From positions 385,246 through 449,245 of the forward strand of contig OY970382.1 of the NCBI GenBank assembly GCA_963719425.1: a DNA stretch of 64,000 nt. Reading direction: 5' to 3'. The stretch's first letter is position 1; the number at the start of each line of letters is the position of its first letter. Position numbers and translations under genes: made by a program. Positions 7,491 through 47,644 of this stretch are shown one piece after another. The stretch is from an uncultured bacterium. GTDB lineage: Bacteria; Patescibacteriota; Minisyncoccia; UBA6257; 2-01-FULL-56-20. The notes under the pieces are model-generated. The model had not been told where the DNA came from. It ran no database searches and saw only the letters and a program-made list of their open reading frames with translations.

Positions 7491-7582
7491 CAGTCTAGTT
7501 TAGTTACGATGGACCAAGAGCCGTCGAAAACCGGACATCTCCGTCCCACCCACGTCATACCGGCTGAGCGCCGTATCCAGAG

Positions 7583-8223: not shown

Positions 8224-8224
8224 T

Positions 8225-8794
8225 TTAATAAGGTATTAAGTTGATAGTCGATTTCCCCTCTCCGGCTTCTTTGACTCTTTCTTTTACCTGGTGCTGAGTT
8301 CTACTTAGGGGCTGACTGCCTGTCTTAGCTTCAATAAATGAAATTTTTTCAACCTTCCCCTTTTTTGTTAGCCCACCAAAAGATATGTAATCAATTGGGT
8401 TTAATATGGCCCTACAATCCCCATTCTCAAATCTGAACTTGTTTGAGGCTGGTAAAATTTGGTCAAATATTTGACCGATATTTGTATACTTTGTAATAAC
8501 CTGAACCCTCTTGGGTCTTTCTATTTTGCGATGTTTTAATTTTTTTATTTTTTCTTTTATGTCTTCGATTTTTTTCAACCAAGTTTCTTCTTCTTTCTCT
8601 GTTTTTTTAAAAGCTTTTTTGATATTATCACGCTGCTGATCTAATTTATTTAAAACATATCCGGGGTATGGTTTTTTTCTGATATCAAAAAGGTGGGCGT
8701 TCTTCGCACCGAAAGCTCCTCCGCAGTGATTGCATTTAATAGTTAGGCCCTTAACACCCTCCAGTATTTTTATTATGTCGATTTCTTCGTTCAT
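8225..8794 (-). CDS. P1: 189-aa protein with an N-terminal CNHC zinc-knuckle-like motif, a Lys/Glu-rich coiled coil, and a C-terminal restriction-endonuclease-fold core resembling Hjc / Mrr / YraN (PID-x13-IEAK).
   Basis: Segment IDYISFGG-LTKKGKVEKISFIEAK is similar to the Hjc catalytic core VDLVAGNG-KKYLCIEVK (Hjc sequence recalled from memory). Low GC. Call made from motifs only. Confidence 0.55.
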   Translation of the reverse strand: MNEEIDIIKILEGVKGLTIKCNHCGGAFGAKNAHLFDIRKKPYPGYVLNKLDQQRDNIKKAFKKTEKEEETWLKKIEDIKEKIKKLKHRKIERPKRVQVITKYTNIGQIFDQILPASNKFRFENGDCRAILNPIDYISFGGLTKKGKVEKISFIEAKTGSQPLSRTQHQVKERVKEAGEGKSTINLIPY

Positions 8795-8808: not shown

Positions 8809-11800
8809 TTACGGGCGTCTTATCACGACCAATCTGATGTCCTTATTTGCGCTTCCTTTCCTGTTTAATTCTCGTCCCATATCTTCCAATACGACGCTAC
8901 AATCTTTCAGCGAGGCAAGATCCTTAAGGATTAAATCCCCCAATGTAGACGCATAATGAAAATCTTTGCTTGGTCCTTCAATATTGACTATCGTACGCTC
9001 CCCGCGCGATAGGTTAGCTTCGTCGTTTATGCTATTAAAACTTTCTAGTATTTTTTCGGAACCTGTCTTGGGTCCCACCGTGCCGTAGCCGGTGCCTGAG
9101 CAGATGATGTTTTGGAAACACTGGAATGCTTCGACGGCGCGCTCAGTCGCAGCGTCAAAGGTACCATTGATGAAAACGCCTGTAGAGAGATAACCGTCCT
9201 CGACCAGTATGTTCTGGAGGGTCGTGACCTCGGAGCCAACGCTCCCGAGAGAAAGGGATGATGCGGACGGGGCAAGCTGGGGAGACGAAACGGCAGTTGT
9301 CGGCGATGAGGATGGAGAAGAAGTGGGTGCGGAGGATATCGTCCCTCCCTCAAGGTTCTTGAGATACGCCCGGGTTATGGGGCCGAGGAACCCGCTCGCG
9401 GGCGAGATACCTGCACTCGCCTGATACTCGGCGAGGGCATCCTTCGTGAGATTGCCGAAGTAGCCCGTGGGATTGGTGAGCTTGCTTCCGGCGGGGCCGG
9501 TGGGGGCAAGGATATTGTTCGTGACGAGGTAGACCTGGAGGGCCCAGACGTCATCACCTTGGGAACCCACCGTCAAATTCCGGCCGGCATTCGCTGTGAA
9601 GAACATCTGGAGGGAGAGGGAGCGAACTTCTTGTACGAGTTGTAGCAACTGGGTGAGAAGATTAGTGCTTGCAGTGGAAACTATGGAAGTTGAGCTGCTG
9701 CCAGTTGTGGGCGGAGAATAGCCTCCACCGCCTCCACCACCACCACCGCCGCCGCCACTGCCGCCACTGCCGCCACTGCCTCCCGATACGACGGCCGCCT
9801 GGGTCGTCGCGCTGGTGCTCGAAGATTCTTCGGAGACATTGCCGGCGGCGTCGTAGGCATCAATAGTGTAGGTGTACGAGGTACCTGCCGAGAGACTGGT
9901 GTCATTGTAGGTTACGACGCTCGTCGTAGCAATCTTCGCACCGTTGCGGTAAACATGATAGCCAGCGACACCAACATAGTCCGTCGATGCGGACCAGGAT
10001 AGGTTGATCTCGCTTTGGGATACTGCGGTTGCGGTGAGGTTCTGCGGAATAGAAGGAGGTGTGCCGTCCACGGTCACGGTCACCTGGGCCGTTGAACTGC
10101 CGTTCGCATTCGCCGCCGTGAGGATATAGACGGTGGTGGAGGACGGAGAGACGACGACGAAGCCCGTCGACGTGGCGGATTGGTTGCCGATCCCTTGACT
10201 GATGGCGACAGTCGTCGCGAGCGCCGTCGTCCAGGAAAGGGTGCTTGATGCGCCGGGCATGATGAAGGCCGGGGACACCGTGAAGGACGTGATGGTCGGG
10301 GCGAGATTGCTCGGGGTCACGCTGTTGGAGGCCGAGGAGGACGCTGATGTTCCCGCGGCGTTCGTCGCCGTGACCGTGAAGGTGTAGCTCGTGCCGTTCG
10401 TGAGGCCGGAGACGACAATAAGGCTCGCCGTGGAGGAAGCCTGGATATTGCCGGAATCGGAGGTGGCTGCGTAATAGAGAACGGACGATCCCCCGTTCGA
10501 GCCAGGGGTGAAGGAAACGGTCGCTTGGGCATTTCCGGCAACAGCGGAAACGGACATCGGCGGGCTAGGGACCGTGTACGGCGTGGAGGAGACGACGTTG
10601 GAAGGCGTGGACGTACCGATGCTGTTCTCTGCCAGAACCTCAAAATCATAGCTCTGCCCATTCGCGAGGGAGGTCACTGTTGAGGTGGTTTGGCTTGGGG
10701 TAGTCGTGGCGTACAAAGCAAAGGTGGACGAGCCCGTCGTACGGTCGTAGACGAGGTATTGGGTGAGGATCGATCCACCATTTGAGGCGGGCGCCGACCA
10801 CGAGAGGGATACCTGGGCGTTGCTGGGGATGGCAGACAGGGACTGGGGTGGGGTGGGAGTGGTCGAAGTGACATTCTCAACGTTCACCGTGGTCGAGGCC
10901 GTGGAGGTGTTGTTTGAGGTGTCAGTCGAGAGCGCCCAGAGGGTCGTTGAACCGTTTGCGGTGCTGGTCGTATTCCAGAAAATGGAATAAAGGGTGCCGC
11001 TTGCGACCGTGGAGGAACCGACGAGGGTGCTCGAGGCAAGTCCCGCGCCATAGCTCCCTTCATAGAAAGCGACGCTCCGGACGTCAATATTGTCCGTGGA
11101 GGAGGCCGTGAGCGTAATGGTCGAGGAGACGGTGGCATTTGCGGCGGGGGCGATCCAGGTGACAACAGGAGGAGTGGTGTCGTTTGCGGTTGTAAGCGAG
11201 AGAGTCGCCCTGTCAAAGAAAGGCCCCGTAGAAAATGTATCATCCGCCTCAACGGTGAACGTAGTCGTCGTCGCGACAGTCGGCGTTCCCGAAATGACCC
11301 CGGTCGAGGTAGCCAGAGAAAGGCCCAGCGGCAACGAACCGCTTATGAGCATAAAGCTTACCGTTCCCTGCGTAGAGGTGGTCGTGAGCGTTTGGAAATA
11401 TGCGCTGCCGACCGCGCCCGTAGGAAACGAGGCGGTCGTTATCTTAATAAAGGAGAAGGACATAACTCGGTTCGCTGAGTTGTCAACGGCAAAAAGCCGA
11501 TTATTCACTGGATCGTAGGCCAGACCATACGGCGCACTAAGCCCGGTCTGCGTAACGCTCCCTCCCGATGAGGAAAAATCCGGCTGCCCAATATCGTTTG
11601 AGGCGGCCTCACCCTTTTGGATAGTCGAGGTTGCGACATTGTTCCAAACCATAATGCGTTGGTTTCCCTCATCGGTTACAAAGAGCCGTCCATTCGTCGC
11701 ATCATATGCAACACCGAAAGGAGTGCTCAATCCATCCGGGGCAGTATTGGTGTCTGATTCACCGAAGTCGGCCTGGCCGAGCTCGCTCAATGCAGCCTCG

Positions 11801-13905
11801 TGATTCGGAAAAGTTGACGTGCCGACCGCGAAGACCATGATGCGGTTATTGGTCTGATCCACCACAAACAGATGATTCAACGTCGGATCGTAGGTCACAG
11901 CCGTCGGCCCAGCAAGCCCCTGCGATGAGGAGTCCGCGGCCACTGTGGAAAAATCATCCTGGCCAAGCTCATCCGTCGAGCTCTCGTTGGTCGTCGCGAT
12001 GGTTGAGGTGGCGACATTGAAGACCATGATGCGACTATTGCCGTGATCCGCGACAAAAAGGCGGTTATCCGCCGCATCGTAGGCAAGACCGTACGGCGCA
12101 TTAAGACCGGTCTGCGTCGTGACGGAAGAGGAACTTGAAAAGTCCGCCTGGCCGAGCACGTCCGTTGAGGTCTCATTGGTCGCTATGGCTCCCGGAGCCA
12201 TATTGAAGACAAGGACGCGATTATTCCCGCTGTCAGCGACAAAAAGACGATCGTCCGCCGGATCATAGGCGAGACCATAGGGAGCATTGAGACCGTTTTG
12301 CGTTGTAGCGGCGTCGTCGCTCGTGAAATTGCTTTGTCCGAGAACGAACGAGGCGGTGGTGCTCGAAAGCCTGTTGTTCGCGTCCAAATTGAAGACAAGC
12401 ACGCGATTGTTGAGCTGGTCCGAAACAAAGAGCCGATGGTGCGCGACATCGAGTGCGGCATCAACCGGCGCATTGAAACCCTGGCCGTTCGGACCGCCGT
12501 TCGGCTCACCGGCGGTATATGTCGTCTGCCCGAGAAGACCGGAAGCGCTTTCGTTAGTGGAAATAGGGGCAATGACAGGGAAAACAATGACGCGGTTGTT
12601 ATTCTGATCGGAAACGAAAATCTGATCGCTCACCCCGTCAAACGCAACGCCAAAGGGGCCGTTCAGCCCATTTTGCGTCGTATTCGGGCCCTCACCCGAA
12701 AAATCAGCTTGGCCGATGACGCTCGTAGCGTCCTCGTCAGTCGGGAACGTCGAGGTGCCGACCGCGAAGACCATGACGCGGTTGTTGGCATTGTCGGTCA
12801 CAAAAAGACGATTATTGATTCCGTCGTAGGCCAGTCCTTCCGGACCGGAAAGGCCGTTTGATGAGGTATTCGGGTCCGCCGTTGAGAAATCCGCCTGGCC
12901 AAGCTCATCCGTCGAGCTCTCGTTAGTCGTCGTGATGGTTGAAGTGGCGACGTTAAAAACAAGGATACGATTGTTGCCCTGGTCCGCCACGAAGAGCCGG
13001 CTGTCACCGTCAAAGGCCAAACCACAGGGAGTCGTAAGCCCTTGTTGCGTCGTGGTGGCGACGGAACTTGAGAAATCCGCCTGGCCGAGCTCATCCGTCG
13101 AGCTCTCGTTGGGCGTCGCGATGGCTCCCGGAGCTGCATCAAAAACAAGGACACGATTGTTGCCTTGGTCCGCCACGAAGAGCCGGCTGCTCGTTGTGTC
13201 GTAGGCAAGGCCGTACGGGTCATTGAGGCCAGCCTGCGTCGTGGTGGCAACGGAACTTGAGAAATCCGCCTGGCCGAGCACCGCAGACGCAGCCTCGCCG
13301 TCCGCGAATCCCGGAGTCACATCGAACACCATCACGCGGTTGTTTACCCCGTCAGATACGAAGAGCCGCTCATTGACCGGATCGTACGCGAGGCCGTCGG
13401 GATACGCAAGGTTGGTTTGCGTCGTTATGGCGTTCACCGATATAAAATCGCTTTGTCCGAGAACGGAAGTCGGCGTCGTGCCCGAAATGGTGTTGTCCGC
13501 GTTAAGCGCGAACACGAGTACGCGGGCGTTGTTCTGGTCCGTCACAAAAAGACGGTGATGGAACGCATCCAGCGCGACGTCGCCCGGGTAATAGAATCCC
13601 TGGTTATTCGGACTATTGTTCGTCCCCCCTGCGGTATAAATAGGATTACCAATTTGGTCGACGTGCCCTAAAATACCGTCCGCATTATATAACGCGGCAC
13701 GCGCGGCAAGAGGAACCGTACAGACAATAAATCCAGCAATGGCGAAAAGGAAAACCCACCGAGAATCTTTGAGAAACGATCGACACATCATAGCTAGGAA
13801 GTCTACGCCAATCGGGTCGAAAAAAATAGGAAAAATTGTGGACAGCCTGTGAAATAATGCGCATACCGGCTCTCCAAGATCAGATCCGACAAAGAATGAT
13901 ACCAT
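8809..13905 (-). CDS. Giant secreted cell-surface protein (1698 aa). Signal peptide, ~16 or more NHL-type beta-propeller repeats (YDxxxxRLFVxDxxNNRVxVF), a putative Ig-like domain, 3 fibronectin-III-like domains, a GGSGG/poly-Gly linker, two PG_binding_1-like peptidoglycan-binding domains, and a short low-GC C-terminal tail.
   Basis: Single long ORF. The likely true start is the internal MMCRSFLKDSRWVFLFAIAGFIVCTVPLAARA signal peptide near 13791. Repeat motifs are readable in the translation. GC of the last ~250 nt (8809..9060) drops to ~40%. Confidence 0.85.
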   Translation of the reverse strand: MVSFFVGSDLGEPVCALFHRLSTIFPIFFDPIGVDFLAMMCRSFLKDSRWVFLFAIAGFIVCTVPLAARAALYNADGILGHVDQIGNPIYTAGGTNNSPNNQGFYYPGDVALDAFHHRLFVTDQNNARVLVFALNADNTISGTTPTSVLGQSDFISVNAITTQTNLAYPDGLAYDPVNERLFVSDGVNNRVMVFDVTPGFADGEAASAVLGQADFSSSVATTTQAGLNDPYGLAYDTTSSRLFVADQGNNRVLVFDAAPGAIATPNESSTDELGQADFSSSVATTTQQGLTTPCGLAFDGDSRLFVADQGNNRILVFNVATSTITTTNESSTDELGQADFSTADPNTSSNGLSGPEGLAYDGINNRLFVTDNANNRVMVFAVGTSTFPTDEDATSVIGQADFSGEGPNTTQNGLNGPFGVAFDGVSDQIFVSDQNNNRVIVFPVIAPISTNESASGLLGQTTYTAGEPNGGPNGQGFNAPVDAALDVAHHRLFVSDQLNNRVLVFNLDANNRLSSTTASFVLGQSNFTSDDAATTQNGLNAPYGLAYDPADDRLFVADSGNNRVLVFNMAPGAIATNETSTDVLGQADFSSSSSVTTQTGLNAPYGLAYDAADNRLFVADHGNSRIMVFNVATSTIATTNESSTDELGQDDFSTVAADSSSQGLAGPTAVTYDPTLNHLFVVDQTNNRIMVFAVGTSTFPNHEAALSELGQADFGESDTNTAPDGLSTPFGVAYDATNGRLFVTDEGNQRIMVWNNVATSTIQKGEAASNDIGQPDFSSSGGSVTQTGLSAPYGLAYDPVNNRLFAVDNSANRVMSFSFIKITTASFPTGAVGSAYFQTLTTTSTQGTVSFMLISGSLPLGLSLATSTGVISGTPTVATTTTFTVEADDTFSTGPFFDRATLSLTTANDTTPPVVTWIAPAANATVSSTITLTASSTDNIDVRSVAFYEGSYGAGLASSTLVGSSTVASGTLYSIFWNTTSTANGSTTLWALSTDTSNNTSTASTTVNVENVTSTTPTPPQSLSAIPSNAQVSLSWSAPASNGGSILTQYLVYDRTTGSSTFALYATTTPSQTTSTVTSLANGQSYDFEVLAENSIGTSTPSNVVSSTPYTVPSPPMSVSAVAGNAQATVSFTPGSNGGSSVLYYAATSDSGNIQASSTASLIVVSGLTNGTSYTFTVTATNAAGTSASSSASNSVTPSNLAPTITSFTVSPAFIMPGASSTLSWTTALATTVAISQGIGNQSATSTGFVVVSPSSTTVYILTAANANGSSTAQVTVTVDGTPPSIPQNLTATAVSQSEINLSWSASTDYVGVAGYHVYRNGAKIATTSVVTYNDTSLSAGTSYTYTIDAYDAAGNVSEESSSTSATTQAAVVSGGSGGSGGSGGGGGGGGGGGGYSPPTTGSSSTSIVSTASTNLLTQLLQLVQEVRSLSLQMFFTANAGRNLTVGSQGDDVWALQVYLVTNNILAPTGPAGSKLTNPTGYFGNLTKDALAEYQASAGISPASGFLGPITRAYLKNLEGGTISSAPTSSPSSSPTTAVSSPQLAPSASSLSLGSVGSEVTTLQNILVEDGYLSTGVFINGTFDAATERAVEAFQCFQNIICSGTGYGTVGPKTGSEKILESFNSINDEANLSRGERTIVNIEGPSKDFHYASTLGDLILKDLASLKDCSVVLEDMGRELNRKGSANKDIRLVVIRRP

Positions 13906-14046: not shown

Positions 14047-14730
14047 TCACGGCCTCGGGATTGTCGCAGAAACTTCGTTTGACGGGACGCTTTCCAGTTC
14101 CGTCTCAGATGGATAGGAGCACGAACTGCCATGGACGTAATCCGCTACAGTGGTCACCACGTGGTAATACGTGTTGCCTGCCTGGACGTTATAGTCCGGG
14201 TAAAATGTCCCGGGAACATTCCCAATCGTCGCATAGGGTCCCCCCGATACGGACGAGACCTTTATACGATAGCCCAGGTTCGCGTAACAGGGGTTCGTTG
14301 CCGAGGTGCTTGCGGTCCAGTATAAGTCAACGTCGTGCACACCCGTTCCGCTGAGCGAAACGGTCGGAACGTTCGTCGCGGTACTTTGGACCGAAAGCGT
14401 CCCGCTCGCGCCGCCCCCTATGGTCGGGCTGAACATCACTTTGAAACTCGCGGTCCCTTTCGCGGGAACCGCTACCGGCAGTGAAATGCAACAAATTGCG
14501 AACTCGCTACTGTTGCTTCCGCTGCCACCGCTCACAGTGATGGTATTAAGGGTCACCGCCACGCTGCCAGTGTTCGTGACGATGATCGTTCCTGAGTTCA
14601 TGCTGTTCACTACGACCGCCCCAGCGTTCCAGATAGTCGGACTCACCGATATCGTCCCGGCCTTACCGAATGCACTCCTGGCACACAACAAGACAATTAG
14701 AGCAACTAGCGCAAGTCGGACGCTTCTCAT
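14047..14730 (-). CDS. Secreted hypothetical protein (227 aa) with a signal peptide and beta-sandwich-like Ser/Thr/Gly-rich sequence. Probably co-transcribed with the giant gene.
   Basis: Signal peptide MRSVRLALVALIVLLCARSAFG. Sits directly upstream of and co-oriented with 8809..13905. Confidence 0.6.
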   Translation of the reverse strand: MRSVRLALVALIVLLCARSAFGKAGTISVSPTIWNAGAVVVNSMNSGTIIVTNTGSVAVTLNTITVSGGSGSNSSEFAICCISLPVAVPAKGTASFKVMFSPTIGGGASGTLSVQSTATNVPTVSLSGTGVHDVDLYWTASTSATNPCYANLGYRIKVSSVSGGPYATIGNVPGTFYPDYNVQAGNTYYHVVTTVADYVHGSSCSYPSETELESVPSNEVSATIPRP

Positions 14731-15116
14731 CTCGTGATCCTCCTTGTTGTTTCCAACCTTGTTATTTACAATGCAAACTCCGTCATCATCATATCGCAGA
14801 AGGGGCTTTACATCAACATTATGTGAGGCCGTTCGAAAACCAAAGCCATAGTAATCCCTGAGCGCTGCGGGTTAGCAAAAAACATTCCTAAAAATAACAC
14901 ATTCCACCGTCACACGCCGACCTCCAGTGGTACAGTAAGGAGATGCCGGGCGACCGGGTTCAAAACGGCGTGAAATTACTCAGTCGTTTGGAGGGAGAAC
15001 CCCGATTATCAAGAATCTTGCCATCATTGCGCTCGCCATTGGGATCGCCGCGGACGTCGCTCCACTTGAGGAGAAAAAACAAGAAAGGTAGCGGGACCAC
15101 AGCACCGCCACATCCA

Positions 15117-15662
15117 TCACCGATTCGCAGAGGCAAAAGTAACGAGCCGATGTTGCAGTCCCGCGCGAACATTGAATTCCTTTTTGGCCGCCCACGCATA
15201 GACGCCAAAGAGTGCCGCGCCAAACCCAAAGTCCCCGAGAAGCGTGTTGCGGAAGAAAGGAATCGCCGTCACGTAGCACGCGAGAAGACCCGCGAGCGTG
15301 TGCGGATACCACGGCGAGAGCGCCCACACGGCGAAATTCGTTGAGAGATAAAAGAGAATGGAACCGGTCGCAGTGCCGAGCGCAAATTTCCGCCACGTAA
15401 AATTCATACCAATCCAGTTACCGAGGAATGTTGCGAGGGCGAACGACCCGTAGACCGCGACCATGAGCCGCCAGTCGTAAAATCCGATCACGGCGTCCGA
15501 AACGAACATCGCGCCGAGGACGATGCCGATGCTCTGCCTTCGCGGCAAACGCGCGCCGAGAAACAGCGCGAGTGCGCCGATCGGCGCAAAATTCGCCGGA
15601 TGCGGCAGGAGCCGAAACGACGCGGCGGCGAGCGCAAGAAGAATTGCGAGAAAATATTTCAT
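15117..15662 (-). CDS. Small polytopic membrane protein (181 aa), possibly an ECF-type S-component-like transporter subunit.
   Basis: Five to six predicted TM helices. Immediately downstream of the DUF4430 genes. Confidence 0.5.
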   Translation of the reverse strand: MKYFLAILLALAAASFRLLPHPANFAPIGALALFLGARLPRRQSIGIVLGAMFVSDAVIGFYDWRLMVAVYGSFALATFLGNWIGMNFTWRKFALGTATGSILFYLSTNFAVWALSPWYPHTLAGLLACYVTAIPFFRNTLLGDFGFGAALFGVYAWAAKKEFNVRAGLQHRLVTFASANR

Positions 15663-15675
15663 GATGGTCTCGTTA

Positions 15676-16167
15676 TTATTGCTGCGATGCGGTAAATTTC
15701 CATTCTATGCGGTCGCCCGCATGCACTGTGGCGTGATCGGCGCCCTCCGTGGCATACGCACCATTCACCCAGTACTGCCAGTACGCGCCGCCTGCACCAT
15801 TTATCTTATCACCGATCTCCGTGATGAGAATCCCCGTGCCCGGATAGACCTTGTAATCAAAGGCAAGTCCAGTATTCGCGGCAGCAGCCTTGACCACCGA
15901 AAAAACGGTGGAGGTGGCGGCCACGGGAACGGCGCTGTTCACGATATTTTTCGTACCATCAAAGACAACGAGCGTCGTGGAGGCGACTGGCAGCAAAGCG
16001 GGCATGGACGCGGATGATGACAGGACTTTGGCGGGGACCGCCATGGGTGCGGCCCCCGGCGCCGGGAGCGGTGCCGATGAAAAGGAATGCCATCCTGCCC
16101 AACCGGCGAGTGCCGCCGCAACCACAACGCACGCAATGATAAAAAATCTTTTCATTGGCTCGTACAA
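15676..16167 (-). CDS. Secreted DUF4430-family protein (163 aa).
   Basis: Signal peptide, then a DUF4430-like core ...FDGTKNIV...GTGILITEIGDKINGAGGAYWQYWVNGAY...GDRIEWKF. Confidence 0.7.
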   Translation of the reverse strand: MYEPMKRFFIIACVVVAAALAGWAGWHSFSSAPLPAPGAAPMAVPAKVLSSSASMPALLPVASTTLVVFDGTKNIVNSAVPVAATSTVFSVVKAAAANTGLAFDYKVYPGTGILITEIGDKINGAGGAYWQYWVNGAYATEGADHATVHAGDRIEWKFTASQQ

Positions 16168-18053
16168 AGATTATTCAGAACTGCGCGGGTTGCGGAACCG
16201 ACAAAGCCGTTGCCGGACGAAAGCCCTTTCGGCGCAAGGATCTGATCGGCAAAAATATTTTGGAAGGCGGCAATCGCATTTTTGGTCCCATCGCCAAAGT
16301 AGGCGGTCTCGTTGCCCGGCGAGCCTGGGCCGTCCTTCGCCACCTCCGTAAGTGAGGTGTAGTTGAGGACCCTTTGGAGATTCTCTACGTCGGGGTCATG
16401 CATTCCCTGATACAAGTTCTTATTGAACGCGACCGCGCAATCGTTCGCCTTGAACTCCAGTGTGACCAATTCCTTTTCTAAATCAATGAGCTCGCCGATC
16501 ACACTTGTCGTTGACGCGCCGAGAATCTCCCCCGCCGTTGAGGTCGGGGTAGTCGTGGCCATGCTCTGTAGAGAAGGCGACGATGAGGATGCCGCGAGCG
16601 AAGATGATGCCGACACGCCGCTTCCTCCACCGCCGGAGCTCGCGGATACAGCCGGCGCCGTGACCGTGAGCGGCAATTCGGAACCGTCACCATAATACCA
16701 GACCACGTTGTCACCTTGCTTCACATTATAATCCGCCGCACTGACTGAAGGAGAAACAAAATTCACGAGATACAGCCACCCGTCCGCGCCGGCTGCCGCA
16801 ACGGATCCGATTTGATCCACGTATGATCCGAAGCTGTACTCGTGAACGTGATAGCTCGCGCCGCAGGATGACGACGCGTCCGCAAGAACATCCATCGCCG
16901 TGAGTGCCTGCCCCGTGCCCGCGCAGAGTTCCGCGGACGGTCCTTCAATGCGGTAAGAAACCTGCACGGGCGCCGGTCCACCGCTGCCTCCCCCTCCCCC
17001 ACCGCCTCCGCCGCTCCCTCCTCCCACTAGCACGACGATCCCCGTTGAGGTCGCCGTGGACGTCGTGCTTGTAGCCGTCGTTTTGGAAACTGTGGAAACT
17101 GGCGTAATCACGGCGGTCGGCAAAAACTTTCCAAGGAGAGCGATCACGGCATATGAGGTTGTCACCGGACTGAACGAGTCCTCACCGCTCCCCGACTGGT
17201 ATTCAAAAAATCCGGAAGACGCGTTCTGAAACGAAAGCAAACTCGCCACGGGATCGGTGCCGCTCGCCGCGGTCCAGGCGGACGACGTCGGACTTTGCCC
17301 GAGTGCATTGATCGCGGAAATAATCCACGAATCGGATGAGGCATCCGTAGACGTCCCGTAAGGGCTTGTGGGATCATACGAAAACCCGCCATCGGGGTTT
17401 TGCGCGCTCTTCAAATATTTGACGGCATTCTGAATGGCAGAGTCGGAAACATTTGACCCGGTCGCAAGGAGCGCCATGACGGCGGCTGCGGTCGTATTCG
17501 TATCGCTCGTTCCGCCGATGACATATGTGAAGCCGCCATTGGTGACGTTCTGGTTATTCAACAAAAAATTACGTGCGCCCAAGACCGTCGGATCGCTTGA
17601 CGACACTCCTGCCGCACTCAACGCGAGCAATCCGAAGATGTCGTCGTTAAGCGTAGAGGTGCCGCCGATCTCACCCGTCGTCGTGCTCACGAAGCCTTCA
17701 AGGTCCGCAACGAGGTCTTCACCGCCAATGATTGTGCGCGGATCGCTGCCGATCGCCGCGATCGCCATGATCGGCGCCTCAAGACCAATTGCCGTAGAGG
17801 TACTCGTGCTCGCGAGCGCAAGCGACACAGAAGAAGTGCTCGGTGCATTGCCCGCCGCAGAAAGTGCCATGATGCTCCACGGATTAAACGACTTGGATTG
17901 CAAATAAGAAACAGCAGCGGCAATTGCCGAGGAAATGTCCGGCGTCGTGGAAGTGGTGGAACTCGCGTCCACAAATGAATGCGTGGGCGACATCGACACA
18001 AAGAACAACGCAGCTGCGGCCAAGAGCACAACGAACAAAAAAGTTTTTTTCAT
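16152..18053 (-). CDS. Surface protein (633 aa): signal peptide, prenyltransferase/terpene-cyclase-like alpha-alpha toroid repeats, a poly-Gly linker, an internal DUF4430 domain, and a C-terminal peptidoglycan-binding domain.
   Basis: Repeated ...GGF.Y... toroid-like units. DUF4430-like segment VQVSYRIEGP...GWLYLVNFV...GDNVVWYYG. C-terminal PG_binding_1-like ...LQRVLN...FGDGTKNAIAAFQ.... Confidence 0.75.
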   Translation of the reverse strand: MKKTFLFVVLLAAAALFFVSMSPTHSFVDASSTTSTTPDISSAIAAAVSYLQSKSFNPWSIMALSAAGNAPSTSSVSLALASTSTSTAIGLEAPIMAIAAIGSDPRTIIGGEDLVADLEGFVSTTTGEIGGTSTLNDDIFGLLALSAAGVSSSDPTVLGARNFLLNNQNVTNGGFTYVIGGTSDTNTTAAAVMALLATGSNVSDSAIQNAVKYLKSAQNPDGGFSYDPTSPYGTSTDASSDSWIISAINALGQSPTSSAWTAASGTDPVASLLSFQNASSGFFEYQSGSGEDSFSPVTTSYAVIALLGKFLPTAVITPVSTVSKTTATSTTSTATSTGIVVLVGGGSGGGGGGGGGSGGPAPVQVSYRIEGPSAELCAGTGQALTAMDVLADASSSCGASYHVHEYSFGSYVDQIGSVAAAGADGWLYLVNFVSPSVSAADYNVKQGDNVVWYYGDGSELPLTVTAPAVSASSGGGGSGVSASSSLAASSSSPSLQSMATTTPTSTAGEILGASTTSVIGELIDLEKELVTLEFKANDCAVAFNKNLYQGMHDPDVENLQRVLNYTSLTEVAKDGPGSPGNETAYFGDGTKNAIAAFQNIFADQILAPKGLSSGNGFVGSATRAVLNNLCTSQ

Positions 18054-18119
18054 GAAACGAAAAATCCCGCAACGGGCGGGACGACGGGTGACAACACAAC
18101 ACCTCCACCGTCCCTTAGC

Positions 18120-18260
18120 TCGAGGAACCTGGTTTATTTTTATGTATCAGGAACGGTAATCGGACTTTCCGCGGCTCCGCGGATCACCGTAGCGGCACTG
18201 TGCGGGATTCCCACCCGCTTCCCCATTCCTGATACTGACCTTTCAAATTGTGAACGGTGC
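18120..18260 (-). promoter_or_regulatory. Candidate cobalamin (B12) riboswitch in the 5' leader of 16152..18053.
   Basis: On the minus strand, a 10-bp P1 helix GUAUCAGGAA...UUCCUGAUAC encloses UGGGGAAGCGGGUGGGAAUCCCGCACAGUGCC..., matching the GGGAA / GGUG / AAUCC / CCCGC-ACUGU-like core as recalled from memory. A downstream stem-loop UCCCGC-ccguu-GCGGGA plus UUUUUCGUUU precedes the start codon. The B12-box match is imperfect. Confidence 0.4.
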
Positions 18261-18350
18261 CTTTCCAGTGTAAGAACCCGTCCCACCGCGCGTCAATGGC
18301 CTTTCTGTGGATAACTCCCACCCGCCGCGCCCACGGTATAATCATGCATA

Positions 18351-19628
18351 ATGGTACGTTCGCGGATACGCCGCTTCCTTAAGGTCCTCGGGCCGGGTCT
18401 CATCACGGGCGCCGCGGACGACGACCCTTCCGGCATCGCAACATATTCACAGACGGGAGCCCAATTCGGTTACGGACAACTTTGGACGGCGGTTTTTCTT
18501 TACCCGCTCATGACTGCGGTTCAGGAGGCGGCCGCCCGCATCGGCGCTGTGACTCGAAAAGGCATTGCCGCAGTTACAAAAGAACATTATGCGCGGAGGG
18601 TGCTCTACGGCATTGTAGCGCTCGTCGTCGTCGCAAACACTATCAATATCGGCGCGGACATAGGCGCGATGGCCGCATCGCTCCGCCTGATTATTCCCGT
18701 TCCTTTTGTAATCGCCGCCCTCCTCTTCGTGGTTGTCATACTGCTCCTTGAGATTTTCATCCCGTATAAACGCTACGTGTGGATACTGAAATGGCTCGTT
18801 CTTGTCATGCTCGTCTATCCCGCAACGATGCTTATTGTGCAGGAACCGTGGGGCGAGATCTTGCGCGCGACTTTTCTTCCCCATCTTGCGTTCTCTCCCT
18901 TGTTCCTTTTCATTCTTACTGGCGTCGCCGGCACCACTATCTCACCGTACTTGTTTTTCTGGCAGGCGTCGGAAGAAGTCGAGGAGGAAATAAAGAAAAA
19001 GACCGCGATGCGGACTTCAATCGGCAAAACATTCATAAAAAATATGCGGATTGATAACGCATTCGGCATGCTCGTCTCGCAATTCACCACGTGGTGCATC
19101 ATTATCACCACCGCGACCGTTCTCAATCAGCATGGCGTCACAAATATTGCCACCGCCGCCGACGCGGCGAAAGCTCTCTTTCCTTTGGTGCGTACATTTC
19201 CCCATGCGGGATTCCTTGCCGAATGCATCTTCGCCGTAGGCGTGATCGGGCTTGGATTGCTCTCGGTGCCCGTGCTCGCCGGGTCTGCGGCATATGCGGT
19301 TGCGGAAACATTTGACTGGCACGAAGGACTTTATAGAAAACTACGTTCGGCGCACGGATTCTACGGCGTGATCACGCTTGCAACCCTCCTCGGCCTCTGC
19401 ATCAACTTCATCGGCATTGATCCAATAAAAGCACTCATCGTCGCAGCCGTCGTGAACGCCGTGGCCGCCGTGCCGCTCATCCTCGTCATCATTTTCATCT
19501 CATCGAACCGCACAATCATGGGCGAGCACGCGAGCGGAATTCTTTCGCAGACGTTCCTCTGGATCACATTCGCGGCGATGCTCATTGCCGCCGGCGCGAC
19601 CCTATGGACGACGTTTTTGCCCACTTAA
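18351..19628 (+). CDS. mntH: NRAMP-family divalent metal (Mn2+/Fe2+) transporter.
   Basis: LGPGLITGAADDDPSGIATYSQTGAQFGY motif and ~11 TM helices. Confidence 0.9.
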   Translation: MVRSRIRRFLKVLGPGLITGAADDDPSGIATYSQTGAQFGYGQLWTAVFLYPLMTAVQEAAARIGAVTRKGIAAVTKEHYARRVLYGIVALVVVANTINIGADIGAMAASLRLIIPVPFVIAALLFVVVILLLEIFIPYKRYVWILKWLVLVMLVYPATMLIVQEPWGEILRATFLPHLAFSPLFLFILTGVAGTTISPYLFFWQASEEVEEEIKKKTAMRTSIGKTFIKNMRIDNAFGMLVSQFTTWCIIITTATVLNQHGVTNIATAADAAKALFPLVRTFPHAGFLAECIFAVGVIGLGLLSVPVLAGSAAYAVAETFDWHEGLYRKLRSAHGFYGVITLATLLGLCINFIGIDPIKALIVAAVVNAVAAVPLILVIIFISSNRTIMGEHASGILSQTFLWITFAAMLIAAGATLWTTFLPT

Positions 19629-27093: not shown

Positions 27094-28857
27094 ATTCAAA
27101 CGAAAGAAACAAAAGCCTGTCAGAATTGCAAAAACCAATTTACGATTGAGCCGGAGGACTTCGCATTTTACGAGAGGATTGACGTCCCGCCGCCGACATG
27201 GTGCCCAGAGTGCCGAATCCAGAGGCGATCGGTATTTTGGAACGAGCATTCCCTGTTCCGCAAAAAGGACGCCCTCACCGGAAAAGAAATATTTTCCACC
27301 TATCCCGAAGAGTCCCGCATTTCGATTTACGACCATGATTACTGGTGGTCAGACGCGTTCGATCCGATGCGGTACGGGCGGGAGTATGATTTCTCTAAAC
27401 CATTTTTTGAGCAGTTCAATACACTGTCATATGAAGTTCCGTGGCCTTCACGAGCGGTCCAAAGGTTGGTGAACAGCGATTACTCGAACCAAGCGTCAGA
27501 TGACAAAAATTGTTACCTTTGTTTCAACGGGAACTTTGGCGAAGACTGCCTCTATGGAGTTGCTTTCAACCGGACGAAGAACTGCGTTGACTTTTATCAA
27601 ATCCAAGATTGCGGGTACTCGTATGAAATCTTTTCAGTAAACAAGGGCTACAAGAATTTCTTCACCGTGGAGAGTGACAACTGCCGCGAATCATGGTTTT
27701 TGCTCAACTGCCACGATTGCGACCATTGTTTCGGCTGTGTGAACCTGTGGCACAAACAATACCACATTTTCAACGTCCCCTACTCAAAAGAGGAGTATGC
27801 AGAGCGGATAAAGAAGCTCAACCTGGGATCCTACGAATCCCTACAGAAAATACGCAAAGAAGTGCTTGCATTTCAGACGCGATATCCGCTGCGGTTCATG
27901 CACGGGGGAGGACTCAATACCAATGTCACCGGAGAGTACGTCTACCAGTCAAGAAATGCGCGGGATTGCTACCAAGGGGTGGCGATAGAAAATTCAAGGT
28001 TCGTGCAAAGCGTCTCTGACGGCGTCAAGGACTCATATGATTACACGAACTGGGGCCAGAACAGCGAATTGATTTATGAATCGGTAAGCATCGGGGAGGA
28101 TTGCCAGAGAATCAAGTTCTCCTTTGATTGCTGGCCCGCGTGCCAAGACGTTGAATATTCCATGAATTGCCACTCCTCTTTCGGATTGTTCGGCTGCGTC
28201 GGACTGAAAAAGAAAAATTACTGTGTCCTTAACAAGCAATATTCGAAAAAGGCCTACGAAGACCTGGTGGAAAAGATCAAGGCGCATATGAATTCAGTGC
28301 CGTATAAGGACAAGGCGGGAAGGACATACCGCTACGGCGAGTTCTTTCCGCCAGAATTCTCCCCTCTCGCCTATAATGATTCATCCGCGATAGATTACTT
28401 CCCGCTCAGCAAAGAGTCAGCGACAAAAGGCGGCTTTGCTTGGCGCGATGCTCCTCCCCAAAAATATGTAGCCGATGTCCTCGCTCGTAATTTGCCGGAT
28501 CACATAGACGATGCGGGGAAAGAGATCACGAAGAAGATCATCTCCTGCGGTGCCTGTTCAAAAGCATATCGGATAGTGCCGACCGAGTTTGACTTTTATC
28601 AACAGTTCGGCATTCCGCTGCCGCGGCTTTGCCACAATTGCCGCTTTTCGGAGAGACTGAAGTTCAAAAACCCACCGAGGTTCTGGCATCGCGCTTGCCA
28701 ATGCACAGGTCAAAAAAGCGAAAACGGCGCATATGCAAATACAGGAGTCCATTTCCACAAGGACACTCGTTGCCCCAACGAATTTGAAACACCCTATGCC
28801 CCCGACCGCCCCGAGATCGTGTACTGCGAGCAGTGCTACAACGCAGAAGTGGTGTAA
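27094..28857 (+). CDS. Cysteine-rich multi-zinc-ribbon protein. The track ORF starts at 27367, but the conserved-looking coding frame is open from 27091 with no canonical start.
   Basis: The same frame upstream of Met-27367 encodes ...KACQNCKNQFTIEPEDFAFYERIDVPPPTWCPEC.... That segment is an internal repeat of ISCGACSKAYRIVPTEFDFYQQFGIPLPRLCHNC later in the protein. Other repeats include CH..FGCVxL...Y.xxN..YSK..YE. There is no ATG/GTG/TTG between the stop at 27088-27090 and 27367. ATT at 27094 is the only start-like codon. Confidence 0.55.
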   Translation: MQTKETKACQNCKNQFTIEPEDFAFYERIDVPPPTWCPECRIQRRSVFWNEHSLFRKKDALTGKEIFSTYPEESRISIYDHDYWWSDAFDPMRYGREYDFSKPFFEQFNTLSYEVPWPSRAVQRLVNSDYSNQASDDKNCYLCFNGNFGEDCLYGVAFNRTKNCVDFYQIQDCGYSYEIFSVNKGYKNFFTVESDNCRESWFLLNCHDCDHCFGCVNLWHKQYHIFNVPYSKEEYAERIKKLNLGSYESLQKIRKEVLAFQTRYPLRFMHGGGLNTNVTGEYVYQSRNARDCYQGVAIENSRFVQSVSDGVKDSYDYTNWGQNSELIYESVSIGEDCQRIKFSFDCWPACQDVEYSMNCHSSFGLFGCVGLKKKNYCVLNKQYSKKAYEDLVEKIKAHMNSVPYKDKAGRTYRYGEFFPPEFSPLAYNDSSAIDYFPLSKESATKGGFAWRDAPPQKYVADVLARNLPDHIDDAGKEITKKIISCGACSKAYRIVPTEFDFYQQFGIPLPRLCHNCRFSERLKFKNPPRFWHRACQCTGQKSENGAYANTGVHFHKDTRCPNEFETPYAPDRPEIVYCEQCYNAEVV

Positions 28858-47460: not shown

Positions 47461-47644
47461 GCGTGAATCCCCCGCGGGCCCGAGCCCTAAGGGGTAGCTA
47501 TCACACTCTAAGCGCTAAACCGCCCACCGTCAAACAAAAACCGCTTCTCGCTTCACACGAAAAACGGCTTTTGCTCCGTTAACTCATCGTTAACTACAAG
47601 AACCATTGTAGCAAACCTGCTCCGGAGGCAACTGTGGATAAGAA

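What the first reader, a model, noticed from the sequence alone, without database searches (positions are those of the whole stretch)
18120..18260. Candidate cobalamin riboswitch controlling a DUF4430 surface-protein cluster
The minus-strand leader of 16152..18053 contains a 10-bp closing helix around GGGAAGCGGGUGGGAAUCCCGCACAGUG..., matching several hallmark cobalamin-aptamer elements as recalled from memory (GGGAA, GGUG, AAUCC, CCCGC-A-CUGU-like). A terminator-like hairpin plus U-run follows just before the start codon. The regulated genes are exactly what one expects under B12 control: DUF4430 proteins are B12-associated in other bacteria.
Basis: partly seen in the sequence, partly recalled or inferred. 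Interest (0 to 1): 0.6.

Follow-up and report, generated by a model that had tools for sequence, protein, structure and literature searches.

The report
B12 riboswitch controlling B12-scavenging operon
This is a genuine vitamin B12-sensing RNA switch that most likely shuts off, by premature transcription termination, a three-gene vitamin B12 capture-and-import operon in an ultra-small (Patescibacteria/CPR) bacterium; the switch is an ordinary member of a well-known family, while the three proteins it controls have never been tested experimentally.

Summary
Rfam finds a full-length AdoCbl riboswitch (RF01482, 69 bits against a gathering score of 50, E 1.3e-10) at 18249..18101 on the minus strand. 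The 10-bp closing helix and the terminator hairpin with its U-run just before ATG 18053 are both present.

Nineteen of 34 related loci scanned carry a cobalamin-clan riboswitch at Rfam's gathering score in front of the orthologous gene. A model built from the window finds one in 54 of 86 related loci, always upstream and on the same strand. Thirty of 34 base pairs show compensatory changes, and the L5-L13 kissing loop covaries.

Folding shows that the 3' strand of P13 can pair either within P13 or with the 5' strand of the terminator. This is a classical OFF switch acting through transcription termination.

The controlled unit is three genes, not the whole surface-protein cluster:
- **g1:** a protein whose predicted fold best matches mammalian transcobalamin, intrinsic factor and haptocorrin.
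- **g2:** a small membrane-anchored DUF4430 protein.
- **g3:** a DUF6580 membrane protein with an ECF S-component fold, closest to the B12 transporters BtuM and CbrT.

The host is a Patescibacteria genome. The riboswitch is a new member of a known kind. The modest novelty is a well-supported B12-transport assignment for DUF6580.

The parts
18267..18296 (-). Promoter-like site: TTGACG, 18-nt spacer, TACACT. Predicted transcription start near 18260.
   Evidence: Consensus scan. Both hexamers are invariant in relatives L001 and L089 while the spacer varies. Function not tested.
18101..18249 (-). Cobalamin riboswitch aptamer, AdoCbl class (RF01482), including the P13 hairpin.
   Evidence: Rfam cmscan: 69 bits, gathering score 50, E 1.3e-10, model positions 1-149 of 149.
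18225..18235 (-). P1 closing helix, 5' strand (GUAUCAGGAAU).
   Evidence: Pairs with 18154..18144. Two compensatory double changes relative to L001. All 11 pairs of P1 show double changes across the 55 aligned sequences (window plus 54 relatives).
18144..18154 (-). P1 closing helix, 3' strand (GUUCCUGAUAC).
   Evidence: As above.
18194..18196 (-). L5 loop GCC, one partner of the kissing loop.
   Evidence: Pairs with G18121, G18119 and C18118 of L13, with A18120 bulged. The variable pair covaries across relatives: GC 24, CG 7, UA 2, AU 1, GU 1, unpaired 5.
18110..18128 (-). P13 hairpin: GUUCCU, loop CGAGCUA (L13, 18122..18116), AGGGAC.
   Evidence: Rfam alignment. All 6 pairs show compensatory changes across relatives. 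The loop takes part in the kissing loop.
18078..18114 (-). Antiterminator: GGGACGG (18114..18108) pairs with UCGUCCC (18084..18078), with an inner GGUG/CACC helix.
   Evidence: It forms in the centroid fold and in the constrained fold when the 5' strand of P13 is unavailable (-21.8 kcal/mol). It excludes both P13 and the terminator. The same design is seen in relatives.
18054..18082 (-). Intrinsic terminator: GUCCCGC, loop CCGUU, GCGGGAU (18082..18064), then U-run UUUUUCGUUUC (18063..18054).
   Evidence: Terminator scan. It forms when P13 is enforced (-21.6 kcal/mol). An equivalent hairpin plus U-run follows P13 in the nine closest relatives folded: L001, L089, L085, L081, L083, L087, L088, L005 and L010. 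L010 carries compensatory stem changes.
16152..18053 (-). g1, 633 aa: signal peptide or membrane anchor, alpha/alpha toroid, DUF4430 (SLBB beta-grasp) and a marginal C-terminal PG_binding_1. Predicted cell-surface B12 binder of transcobalamin architecture.
   Evidence: Pfam. AlphaFold2 model with pLDDT above 90 for about residues 40-320 and 360-460. The 15 best Foldseek PDB hits are transcobalamin, intrinsic factor and haptocorrin, E 6e-11 to 2e-8 over about 460 columns.
15676..16155 (-). g2, 159 aa: N-terminal hydrophobic anchor plus a single DUF4430 (SLBB) domain. Its ATG overlaps the g1 stop codon (ATGA).
   Evidence: Pfam PF14478, 47.8 bits against a cut-off of 23.8. Sequence.
15117..15662 (-). 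g3, 181 aa: DUF6580 membrane protein with an ECF S-component fold. Predicted corrinoid transporter.
   Evidence: Pfam PF20221, E 1.3e-45. AlphaFold2 pLDDT 92.9. Best Foldseek PDB hit is BtuM with cyanocobalamin, TM 0.65, followed by RibU, FolT and ThiT. The family profile's only PDB hit is the 182-residue membrane chain of ECF-CbrT, 6FNP, E 0.0017.
15071..15111 (-). Possible end of the operon: hairpin GUGGCGG...CCGCUAC (15111..15088) followed by a U-rich run.
   Evidence: RNAfold hairpin, z-score only -1.07. Not reported by the terminator scan. Weak evidence. In relatives L085 and L089 the next gene is on the other strand.

Best explanation
The minus-strand leader at 18260..18054 is a class-I (AdoCbl-type) cobalamin riboswitch that acts as an OFF switch through intrinsic transcription termination.

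Transcription probably starts near 18260, from the TTGACG/TACACT promoter. When coenzyme B12 is bound in the junction closed by P1, the L5 loop (GCC) forms a kissing loop with L13 (G-A-G-C). This holds the P13 hairpin shut. With AGGGAC locked inside P13, the downstream GUCCCGC/GCGGGAU hairpin and its U-run form, and RNA polymerase terminates 0-10 nt before the start codon.

Without B12, P13 is not stabilised. Its 3' strand (GGGACGG) then pairs with UCGUCCC, which removes the 5' half of the terminator, and the operon is transcribed.

The operon encodes a B12 capture-and-import route for a bacterium that presumably cannot make B12:
- g1 is a wall-associated protein built like transcobalamin (toroid plus beta-grasp).
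- g2 is a membrane-anchored single beta-grasp (SLBB) protein.
- g3 is a DUF6580 S-component-like membrane transporter.

Shown here: the aptamer identity, the covariation, the mutually exclusive helices, the conserved gene order and the fold similarities. Inferred: ligand binding, actual termination, the hand-off order g1 to g2 to g3, and whether g3 needs an ECF energising module.
For: Aptamer identity and structure:
- RF01482 matches over its full length at 69 bits against a gathering score of 50, E 1.3e-10.
- On 55 aligned sequences (the window plus 54 relatives), 92.9% of cells are paired, against 37-48% when partners are slid. Thirty of 34 pairs have double changes. The covariation score is 0.565 against 0.145 in shuffles.
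- The kissing-loop pair covaries although the model did not encode it.

Switch mechanism:
- With P13 enforced the terminator forms (-21.6 kcal/mol). With the 5' strand of P13 unavailable the antiterminator forms and the terminator is lost (-21.8 kcal/mol).
- The same layout of P13, antiterminator, terminator and U-run is seen in nine relatives.

Regulatory link to the genes:
- A cobalamin-clan riboswitch lies upstream of the orthologous gene at Rfam's gathering score in 19 of 34 loci. The window-derived model finds one in 54 of 86 loci.
- These hits end a median 81.5 nt before the gene.

Proteins:
- g1 fold best matches transcobalamin, intrinsic factor and haptocorrin.
- g1 and g2 hit DUF4430 above the Pfam cut-off.
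- g3 fold best matches BtuM, and its profile hits CbrT.
- The three-gene order or the DUF4430-DUF6580 pair recurs in 26 of 89 loci, and the pair also occurs in 3 of 6 DUF6580 contexts found independently.
- One of those independent pairs has its own RF01482 riboswitch (72 bits) and lies next to nrdR and a ribonucleotide reductase with a TSCPD domain.
- Burroughs et al. 2007 (PMC1796856) predicted that bacterial toroid+SLBB surface proteins scavenge B12.
Against: - No ligand-binding or termination experiment exists.
- The terminator-like hairpin is not statistically unusual by itself: 2 were found in the region against 1.4 expected.
- The outer part of P13 in the Rfam model is poorly paired in the window, with three non-standard pairs flagged.
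- The covariation alignment was fitted to the model, which inflates the paired fraction.
- No B12-dependent enzyme and no ECF module lie within the 64-kb window, so the need for B12 in this organism is not shown.
- g3 has no significant single-sequence match to any solved B12 transporter. Its Foldseek E-value to BtuM is only 0.18, and its profile E-value to CbrT is 0.0017.
- Three other DUF6580 genes sit in glycosyltransferase clusters without a riboswitch.
Confidence: 0.88

Rival explanations
1. The switch acts mainly or additionally on translation. The terminator hairpin sits only 11 nt before the ATG. It sequesters the only purine-rich stretch (GCGGGA) that could serve as a weak ribosome-binding site.
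For: There is no Shine-Dalgarno sequence between the hairpin and ATG 18053. The 3' half of the hairpin (GCGGGAU, 18070..18064) is single-stranded in the antiterminator state. A subgroup of related riboswitches (L051, L052, L056, L059) carries AAGGAG in L13, which points to translational control there.
Against: In relatives L081, L083, L085, L087 and L088 the same hairpin plus U-run lies roughly 55-200 nt upstream of the start codon, so it cannot occlude initiation there. The U-run is typical of intrinsic terminators.
Confidence: 0.15
2. The aptamer is real, but its physiological ligand is not specifically AdoCbl. It could be another cobalamin form such as MeCbl or HyCbl, or another cobamide obtained from the host bacterium.
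For: Orthologous genes in other Patescibacteria are preceded by all three Rfam cobalamin families: RF01482, RF00174 and RF01689. From general knowledge, cobalamin riboswitches vary widely in discrimination between upper ligands.
Against: The window's best match is the AdoCbl model over its full length, including the P6 extension hairpin (18183..18168) typical of class I.
Confidence: 0.2
3. The operon carries a different tetrapyrrole or other cargo, such as haem or a corrinoid precursor, rather than complete B12. Alternatively, DUF6580 has a non-transport role.
For: Several DUF6580 genes lie in glycosyltransferase clusters without a riboswitch. One UniRef name for a homologue (P0191, truncated in the output) appears to read 'Rod shape-determining protein'. 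A preprint on an ECF-like haem uptake system in Lactobacillus sakei (10.1101/864751) turned up in the 'transcobalamin-like' text search but was not read. CbrT itself also transports cobinamide (PMC5997447).
Against: A cobalamin riboswitch controls the genes in many genomes. g1's fold best matches the three mammalian B12 carriers. g3's only Pfam hit is DUF6580. Two of the three glycosyltransferase contexts include B12-binding radical SAM genes.
Confidence: 0.08
4. The match is a chance resemblance or a decayed, non-functional relic.
For: None beyond the absence of experiments.
Against: E 1.3e-10 and a score well above the gathering score. The leader is 93% identical to that of a relative whose protein is only about 85% identical, and its P1 differences are compensatory. 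Covariation is extensive.
Confidence: 0.02

Closest known systems
AdoCbl riboswitch, Rfam RF01482 (clan CL00101; class-I cobalamin riboswitch of the Thermoanaerobacter tengcongensis type)
   Same: Full-length match above the gathering score. It has a P1-closed junction, an L4 loop GGUGGGAAUCC, a B12-box-like AAGUCCG, a P6 extension hairpin, and an L5-L13 kissing loop that couples the aptamer to the expression platform.
   Different: Nothing essential differs. The outer P13 helix of the model is poorly formed. The platform is a separate terminator and antiterminator that overlap the 3' strand of P13, rather than a ribosome-binding site inside P13/L13. The start codon follows the terminator by only 11 nt with no Shine-Dalgarno sequence.
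Mammalian transcobalamin, intrinsic factor and haptocorrin, and the bacterial toroid+SLBB surface proteins predicted by Burroughs et al. 2007 (PMC1796856)
   Same: [quoted passage not shown] The 15 best PDB fold matches are these B12 carriers, and they span both domains. A second, small SLBB paralogue is encoded next to it, as that paper described for bacterial operons.
   Different: Sequence identity is only 14-16%. There is no Pfam Cobalamin_bind (PF01122) hit; the toroid scores as squalene-cyclase/prenyltransferase-like. g1 has an extra C-terminal region of about 170 residues with a marginal peptidoglycan-binding domain. The host is Patescibacteria rather than the Gram-positive groups discussed in 2007. 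The operon partner is DUF6580 rather than CbiO/CbiQ. B12 binding is untested.
B12-specific S-components: CbrT of ECF-CbrT (Lactobacillus delbrueckii, PDB 6FNP, PMC5997447) and the solitary transporter BtuM (Thiobacillus denitrificans, PMC6072759)
   Same: g3 is a small membrane protein of about 180 residues with a confidently predicted S-component fold. BtuM bound to cyanocobalamin is its best PDB fold match. The 182-residue membrane chain of 6FNP is the only PDB sequence reached by the DUF6580 profile. g3 is under B12 riboswitch control.
   Different: It belongs to a different Pfam family (DUF6580). It lacks the invariant cysteine that defines BtuM (PMC6072759). The sequence relation to CbrT is marginal (E 0.0017). 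No ECF module is encoded nearby, so the energisation mode is unknown.

Membership tests
Cobalamin riboswitch (Rfam RF01482 AdoCbl, clan CL00101) | Covariance-model score at or above the curated gathering score | tested here: met
   69 bits against 50, E 1.3e-10, model positions 1-149 of 149.
Cobalamin riboswitch (Rfam RF01482 AdoCbl, clan CL00101) | Junction helices (P1, P4, P5, P6 and its extension) supported by compensatory changes in relatives | tested here: met
   Thirty of 34 pairs have double changes. 92.9% of cells are paired against 37-48% with slid partners. No shuffle of 500 reaches the observed covariation. Caveat: the alignment was fitted to the model.
Cobalamin riboswitch (Rfam RF01482 AdoCbl, clan CL00101) | L5-L13 kissing loop linking the aptamer to the regulatory hairpin | tested here: met
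   Window L5 GCC pairs with L13 G(A)GC. The variable pair covaries: GC 24, CG 7, UA 2, AU 1, GU 1. Covariation is 0.143 against at most 0.044 for slid partners.
Cobalamin riboswitch (Rfam RF01482 AdoCbl, clan CL00101) | Expression platform with mutually exclusive structures | tested here: met
   Constrained folds switch between terminator and antiterminator. The design is conserved in nine relatives.
Cobalamin riboswitch (Rfam RF01482 AdoCbl, clan CL00101) | Location in the 5' leader of B12 transport or metabolism genes | tested here: met
   The riboswitch sits in the leader of the DUF4430/DUF6580 operon. The same link is seen in 19 of 34 loci at Rfam's gathering score and 54 of 86 with the window-derived model.
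Cobalamin riboswitch (Rfam RF01482 AdoCbl, clan CL00101) | Direct, selective binding of adenosylcobalamin | not testable with these tools
   Needs in-line probing, ITC or transcription assays.
Transcobalamin-like B12 binders (alpha/alpha toroid + SLBB/DUF4430) | DUF4430 (PF14478, transcobalamin-like C-terminal beta-grasp) above the Pfam cut-off | tested here: met
   g1 scores 38.3 bits and g2 47.8 bits against a cut-off of 23.8.
Transcobalamin-like B12 binders (alpha/alpha toroid + SLBB/DUF4430) | Two-domain fold (toroid followed by beta-grasp) matching solved B12 carriers | tested here: met
   The Foldseek top 15 are transcobalamin, intrinsic factor and haptocorrin, E 6e-11 to 2e-8 over about 460 aligned columns. 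Toroid-only enzymes come next at about 1e-5. The global rmsd is high (about 21 A), so the relative domain orientation differs or is not well predicted.
Transcobalamin-like B12 binders (alpha/alpha toroid + SLBB/DUF4430) | Sequence membership in the eukaryotic cobalamin-binding family (Pfam PF01122) | tested here: not met
   No PF01122 hit at E up to 0.01. The toroid hits SQHop_cyclase_C and Prenyltrans instead. phmmer against PDB finds squalene cyclases, not transcobalamin.
Transcobalamin-like B12 binders (alpha/alpha toroid + SLBB/DUF4430) | Binds cobalamin between the two domains | not testable with these tools
   Needs purified protein.
BtuM (solitary B12 S-component) | Invariant cysteine (Cys80 in BtuM of T. 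denitrificans) that ligates cobalt | tested here: not met
   The invariant residues of the 56-sequence DUF6580 alignment are R17, H21, N24, D56, G60, V70, T108, N109, W113, Y119, G125, P135 and F136. None is a cysteine. The requirement is stated in PMC6072759.
BtuM (solitary B12 S-component) | S-component fold | tested here: met
   Model pLDDT 92.9. Best PDB match is 8c7p, BtuM with cyanocobalamin: TM 0.65, probability 1.00, but E 0.18. RibU, FolT and ThiT follow.
ECF-type B12 transporter S-component CbrT | Detectable sequence homology to CbrT | tested here: inconclusive
   The single sequence has no PDB hit at E up to 10. The family profile hits only 6fnp_A, the 182-residue membrane chain of ECF-CbrT, at E 0.0017 and 21 bits over profile positions 6-116. 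Identifying that chain as CbrT rests on its length.
ECF-type B12 transporter S-component CbrT | An ECF module (EcfA, EcfA', EcfT) encoded in the genome | not testable with these tools
   None is found in the 64-kb window. The rest of the roughly 888-kb contig could not be read.

The most novel reading that the evidence does not exclude
DUF6580 is a previously unrecognised family of corrinoid-specific S-component transporters. Together with a wall-tethered transcobalamin-like receptor (g1) and a membrane-anchored single-SLBB protein (g2), it would form a three-tier B12 capture relay that is widespread in Patescibacteria. The relay might work without an ECF module, as BtuM does. It would be a bacterial counterpart of the mammalian transcobalamin system in organisms that live on other cells' cofactors.
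Probability: 0.5. Interest if true: 0.55.

Novelty: new member of a known kind. Interest (0 to 1): 0.33.

Why it matters
The riboswitch itself adds nothing new in principle. It is a textbook cobalamin OFF switch.

Its value is as a functional label. It marks a conserved three-gene module (toroid-DUF4430, small DUF4430, DUF6580) as B12-related in Patescibacteria. These are ultra-small, mostly uncultivated bacteria with reduced genomes, and very little is known about how they acquire cofactors.

The analysis gives a testable function to the Pfam family DUF6580, for which no paper was found in the library searched. It also provides bacterial proteins whose predicted fold is closest to human transcobalamin. 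A natural ligand-responsive switch from this group could also be useful for the inducible expression tools that reviewers of the field ask for (PMC11665869).

Tried and rejected
- phmmer of g3 against PDB gave nothing at E up to 10. Only the family profile reached CbrT.
- Text searches found no paper for 'DUF6580', and none combining riboswitch, Patescibacteria and cobalamin. Papers mentioning both CPR and riboswitches concern synthetic tools or other organisms.
- I looked in the window for a B12-dependent enzyme, an ECF module or B12 salvage genes. Twenty further large ORFs were scanned against Pfam. They are housekeeping genes (uvrABC, secA, murB, a MacB-type ABC system and others) or have no Pfam match, and none is B12-related.
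- I looked for a terminator after g3. The scan found none, and RNAfold gives only a weak hairpin with z-score -1.07. The operon end is therefore inferred mainly from the 390-nt gap, g4's own promoter-like site and Shine-Dalgarno sequence, and gene order in relatives.
- The outer P13 helix of the Rfam model was dropped from my own model because three of its pairs are non-standard in the window.
- I considered whether the divergent Nramp gene (18351..19628) is co-regulated and rejected it. It is on the other strand, upstream of the promoter, and it is not the neighbour in L089.
- One search was an incomplete script with no result.
Full report
**Observation**

Read on the minus strand, the leader of ORF 18053..16152 contains the described elements. 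GUAUCAGGAA (18235..18226) pairs perfectly with UUCCUGAUAC (18153..18144). These strands enclose GGGGAAGCGGGUGGGAAUCCCGCACAGUGCCGCUACGGUGA... A hairpin GUCCCGC-CCGUU-GCGGGAU (18082..18064) is followed by UUUUUCGUUUC and then the ATG at 18053.

A scan of the whole 64-kb window against all 4227 Rfam families at gathering thresholds returns two matches. One is a tRNA. The other is RF01482 (AdoCbl riboswitch aptamer) at 18249..18101 on the minus strand: 69 bits against a gathering score of 50, E 1.3e-10, covering model positions 1-149 of 149.

It stops short of the P13 hairpin (to 18110) and the expression platform (to 18054).

**Anatomy of the RNA**

A promoter-like site lies at 18296..18267 (TTGACG, 18-nt spacer, TACACT). 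Both hexamers are invariant in two related genomes while the spacer varies. Transcription probably starts near 18260.

Following the Rfam alignment and my own mapping, the structural elements are:

| Element | Coordinates (minus strand) | Note |
|---|---|---|
| P1 | 18235..18225 with 18154..18144 | 11 pairs |
| P4/L4 hairpin | 18218..18202 | loop UGGGAAU |
| P5 | 18199..18191 | L5 loop GCC at 18196..18194 |
| P6 with extension hairpin | 18189..18161 | extension is UCCGCG-GAGC-CGCGGA |
| B12-box-like AAGUCCG | about 18167..18161 | |
| P13 hairpin | 18128..18110 | GUUCCU, loop CGAGCUA, AGGGAC |

The outer helix that the Rfam model places around P13 is poorly paired in the window, with three non-standard pairs flagged.

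**Relatives and covariation**

The first downstream protein has homologues almost only in Patescibacteria (CPR) metagenome-assembled genomes. These include Taylorbacteria, Liptonbacteria, Colwellbacteria, Uhrbacteria and Minisyncoccia. An essentially identical protein (100% identity over 99% of the query) lies on an 887,956-bp contig.

I fetched 80 loci from species-representative genomes and nine loci for six closer relatives from assemblies. Six of those nine were used in the scans. At Rfam gathering thresholds, 19 of the 34 loci scanned carry a cobalamin-clan riboswitch on the same strand just upstream of the orthologous gene:

| Rfam family | Loci |
|---|---|
| RF01482 | 9 |
| RF00174 | 8 |
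| RF01689 | 2 |

I built a covariance model from the window and its two closest relatives (34 pairs). It finds one match in 54 of the 86 related loci searched, always on the gene's strand. The match ends a median 81.5 nt before the next start codon of an SLBB-family ORF, and within 300 nt in 49 of 54 cases.

On the resulting 55-sequence alignment:
- 92.9% of cells form standard pairs, against 37-48% when partners are slid by 1-3 columns.
- Thirty of 34 pairs show changes on both sides.
- The covariation score is 0.565 against 0.145 in shuffles, and none of 500 shuffles reaches it.

The alignment was fitted to the model, which favours pairing. The compensatory changes are also visible in a plain two-sequence alignment: against L001, P1 changes G-C to U-A and A-U to G-C.

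The L5-L13 kissing loop was not part of the model, so it is an unbiased test. L5 GCC faces L13 G(A)GC, and the variable pair covaries: GC 24, CG 7, UA 2, AU 1, GU 1, unpaired 5. Examples are UACC with GAGUA, AUCC with GAGAU, and GGCC with GAGCC.

**Expression platform**

The 3' strand of P13 (GGGACGG, 18114..18108) is complementary to UCGUCCC (18084..18078), which overlaps the 5' strand of the terminator (18082..18076).
- With P13 enforced, the minimum-energy fold contains the terminator (-21.6 kcal/mol).
- With the 5' strand and loop of P13 made unavailable, the antiterminator forms and the terminator is lost (-21.8 kcal/mol).

The two states are nearly isoenergetic, as expected for a switch. 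The centroid fold of the whole leader already shows the antiterminator.

The same order (P13, antiterminator complementarity, G+C-rich hairpin, U-run) is present in L001, L089, L085, L081, L083, L087, L088, L005 and L010.
- L010 has compensatory changes in the terminator stem.
- L085 and L088 have wobble-compatible changes in the antiterminator.
- In several of these relatives the hairpin lies roughly 55-200 nt upstream of the start codon.

That spacing argues that transcription termination, not occlusion of the start site, is the conserved mechanism. In the window the start codon follows the hairpin by 11 nt and has no Shine-Dalgarno sequence, so an added translational effect cannot be excluded.

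**What is regulated**

Three tightly packed genes follow the leader:

| Gene | Coordinates | Size | Features |
|---|---|---|---|
| g1 | 18053..16152 | 633 aa | signal peptide or anchor, alpha/alpha toroid (Pfam SQHop_cyclase_C/Prenyltrans), DUF4430, marginal PG_binding_1 |
| g2 | 16155..15676 | 159 aa | its ATG overlaps the g1 stop as ATGA; hydrophobic N-terminus plus DUF4430 |
| g3 | 15662..15117 | 181 aa | DUF6580, E 1.3e-45 |

After g3 there is only a weak hairpin plus a U-rich run, then a 390-nt gap. The next gene (14730..14047) has its own promoter-like site and an AAGGAGG ribosome-binding site. In L085 and L089 the gene after DUF6580 is on the other strand. The regulated unit is therefore most likely g1-g3. 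It probably does not include the choice-of-anchor-D protein or the 1698-residue NHL/FN3 protein further downstream.

**Proteins**

*g1.* An AlphaFold2 model is confident for the toroid (about residues 40-320) and the beta-grasp (about 360-460), and poor for the C-terminal third. Its 15 best Foldseek matches in PDB are rat, human and bovine transcobalamin, intrinsic factor and haptocorrin (E 6e-11 to 2e-8, about 460 aligned columns spanning both domains). Prenyltransferases and squalene cyclases follow at about 1e-5 and cover the toroid only. This is the bacterial toroid+SLBB architecture that Burroughs et al. (PMC1796856) predicted in 2007 to scavenge B12. They noted that it is often accompanied by a second small SLBB paralogue, which is what g2 is. 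g1 is not a sequence member of the eukaryotic cobalamin-binding family, because there is no PF01122 hit.

*g3.* The model is confident (pLDDT 92.9). Its best PDB fold match is BtuM bound to cyanocobalamin (8c7p; TM 0.65, probability 1.00, E 0.18), followed by the ECF S-components RibU, FolT and ThiT. A profile of 56 DUF6580 sequences hits a single PDB sequence: the 182-residue membrane chain of 6FNP, at E 0.0017. 6FNP is the B12-specific ECF-CbrT transporter of Lactobacillus delbrueckii (PMC5997447). The BtuM family is defined by an invariant cobalt-ligating cysteine (PMC6072759). DUF6580 has no invariant cysteine, so g3 is not a BtuM. Its relation to CbrT is marginal.

**Gene context**

A local HMM scan finds DUF6580 on the same strand in 26 of 89 loci. 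The usual order is toroid-SLBB, small SLBB, DUF6580. I also looked up six DUF6580 genes independently of g1:
- Three are directly preceded by a small DUF4430 gene.
- One of these pairs has its own RF01482 riboswitch (72 bits). It lies next to nrdR and a ribonucleotide reductase with a TSCPD domain. From general knowledge, that domain is typical of B12-dependent class II enzymes.
- The other three sit in glycosyltransferase clusters without a riboswitch. Two of those three clusters include B12-binding radical SAM genes.

**Mechanism proposed**

When intracellular coenzyme B12 is sufficient, it binds the aptamer. The L5-L13 kissing loop then locks P13, the terminator forms, and transcription stops just before g1. 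When B12 is scarce, the antiterminator forms and the operon is made.

In the proposed route, g1 is tethered in the wall and captures cobalamin from the surroundings or from a host cell. g2 on the membrane surface may relay it, and g3 carries it across the membrane. g3 might work alone like BtuM, or it might dock on an ECF module encoded elsewhere.

The RNA identity, the covariation, the mutually exclusive helices and the conserved gene context are shown here. Ligand binding, termination, the relay order and the energisation mode are inferred.

**Comparison with known systems and novelty**

The RNA is an ordinary member of a known family and meets every defining feature that could be tested here. 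The protein module belongs to a kind predicted by comparative genomics in 2007 but, as far as the searched library shows, never characterised. No paper was found for DUF6580, and none links cobalamin riboswitches with Patescibacteria.

The finding is correct and mostly ordinary. Its added value is a well-supported B12-transport assignment for DUF6580, and a picture of how genome-reduced CPR bacteria may acquire B12.

**Limits**

- No B12-dependent enzyme or ECF module lies in the window, and the rest of the genome could not be read.

Noticed in passing
window 18306..18314 (-), 47633..47641 (-), 5543..5551 (+), and 18 one-mismatch sites: The DnaA-box consensus TTATCCACA is enriched in the window: 21 matches with at most 1 mismatch against 8.3 +/- 2.8 in shuffles, and none of 100 shuffles reaches 21. 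One perfect copy lies 8 nt upstream of the -35 hexamer of the riboswitch promoter and is conserved, with its flanks, in L001 and L089. Another directly abuts a TTGCCT-15-TACAAT promoter-like site about 170 nt upstream of uvrB. It may be a binding site for DnaA or another factor next to promoters.
   Followed up: partly
L006, L015 (RF01689); L019, L012, L008, L007, L021, L002, L023, L028 (RF00174); L001, L005, L089, L085, L016, L088, L081, L083, L087 (RF01482): Orthologous toroid-DUF4430 genes in different Patescibacteria are preceded by all three Rfam cobalamin riboswitch families. Upper-ligand selectivity may therefore differ between lineages for the same uptake gene.
   Followed up: partly
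L051:3170-3295, L052:1963-2093, L056:3624-3754, L059:3809-3933: In a subgroup of these riboswitches the L5 loop is UCCUA and the L13 loop contains UAAGGAG, a Shine-Dalgarno-like sequence. The kissing loop would sequester the ribosome-binding site directly, which points to translational rather than termination control.
   Followed up: no
L081:3614-3886, L083:3761-3952, L087:911-1153: Public gene calls place small 'hypothetical protein' ORFs of 63-90 aa on top of the riboswitch in these relatives. They are probably spurious.
   Followed up: no
L093:1011-5516: In another Patescibacteria genome the order is nrdR, a 787-aa ribonucleotide reductase with a TSCPD domain, an RF01482 riboswitch (4163-4326, 72 bits), and then a DUF4430-DUF6580 pair with no toroid gene. 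A probable B12-dependent enzyme thus sits next to its probable cofactor importer.
   Followed up: partly
L090:4001-8531, L092:4001-8531, L091: Other DUF6580 genes are embedded in glycosyltransferase and sugar-modification clusters without a riboswitch. In two of the three, B12-binding radical SAM genes are within 4 kb.
   Followed up: partly
window 18054..18064 and 16152..16155: g1 has no Shine-Dalgarno sequence, and its ATG follows the terminator stem by 11 nt inside the U-rich tail. The g1 stop and g2 start overlap as ATGA, which suggests translational coupling. By contrast, the gene at 14730 has a canonical AAGGAGG.
   Followed up: no
window 7624..8794 (-): Two adjacent paralogous genes (199 and 189 aa) both hit Pfam Endonuc_Holl, an endonuclease related to the archaeal Holliday junction resolvase. 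They lie next to tRNA-Gln (7420..7491, +).
   Followed up: no
window 8809..13905 (-) and 14047..14730 (-): A 1698-residue predicted surface protein has NHL repeats, three fibronectin type III domains, a bacterial Ig domain and two peptidoglycan-binding domains. It is preceded by a choice-of-anchor-D protein. Both lie downstream of the B12 operon but probably form a separate transcription unit.
   Followed up: no
window 4987..6684 (-), 27367..28857 (+), 2705..3691 (+): Three large ORFs (565, 496 and 328 aa) have no Pfam match at E up to 1e-5.
   Followed up: no
window 18351..19628 (+): An Nramp-family divalent metal transporter gene is divergently oriented from the riboswitch promoter. The pairing is not conserved in L089, so it is probably coincidental.
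   Followed up: partly
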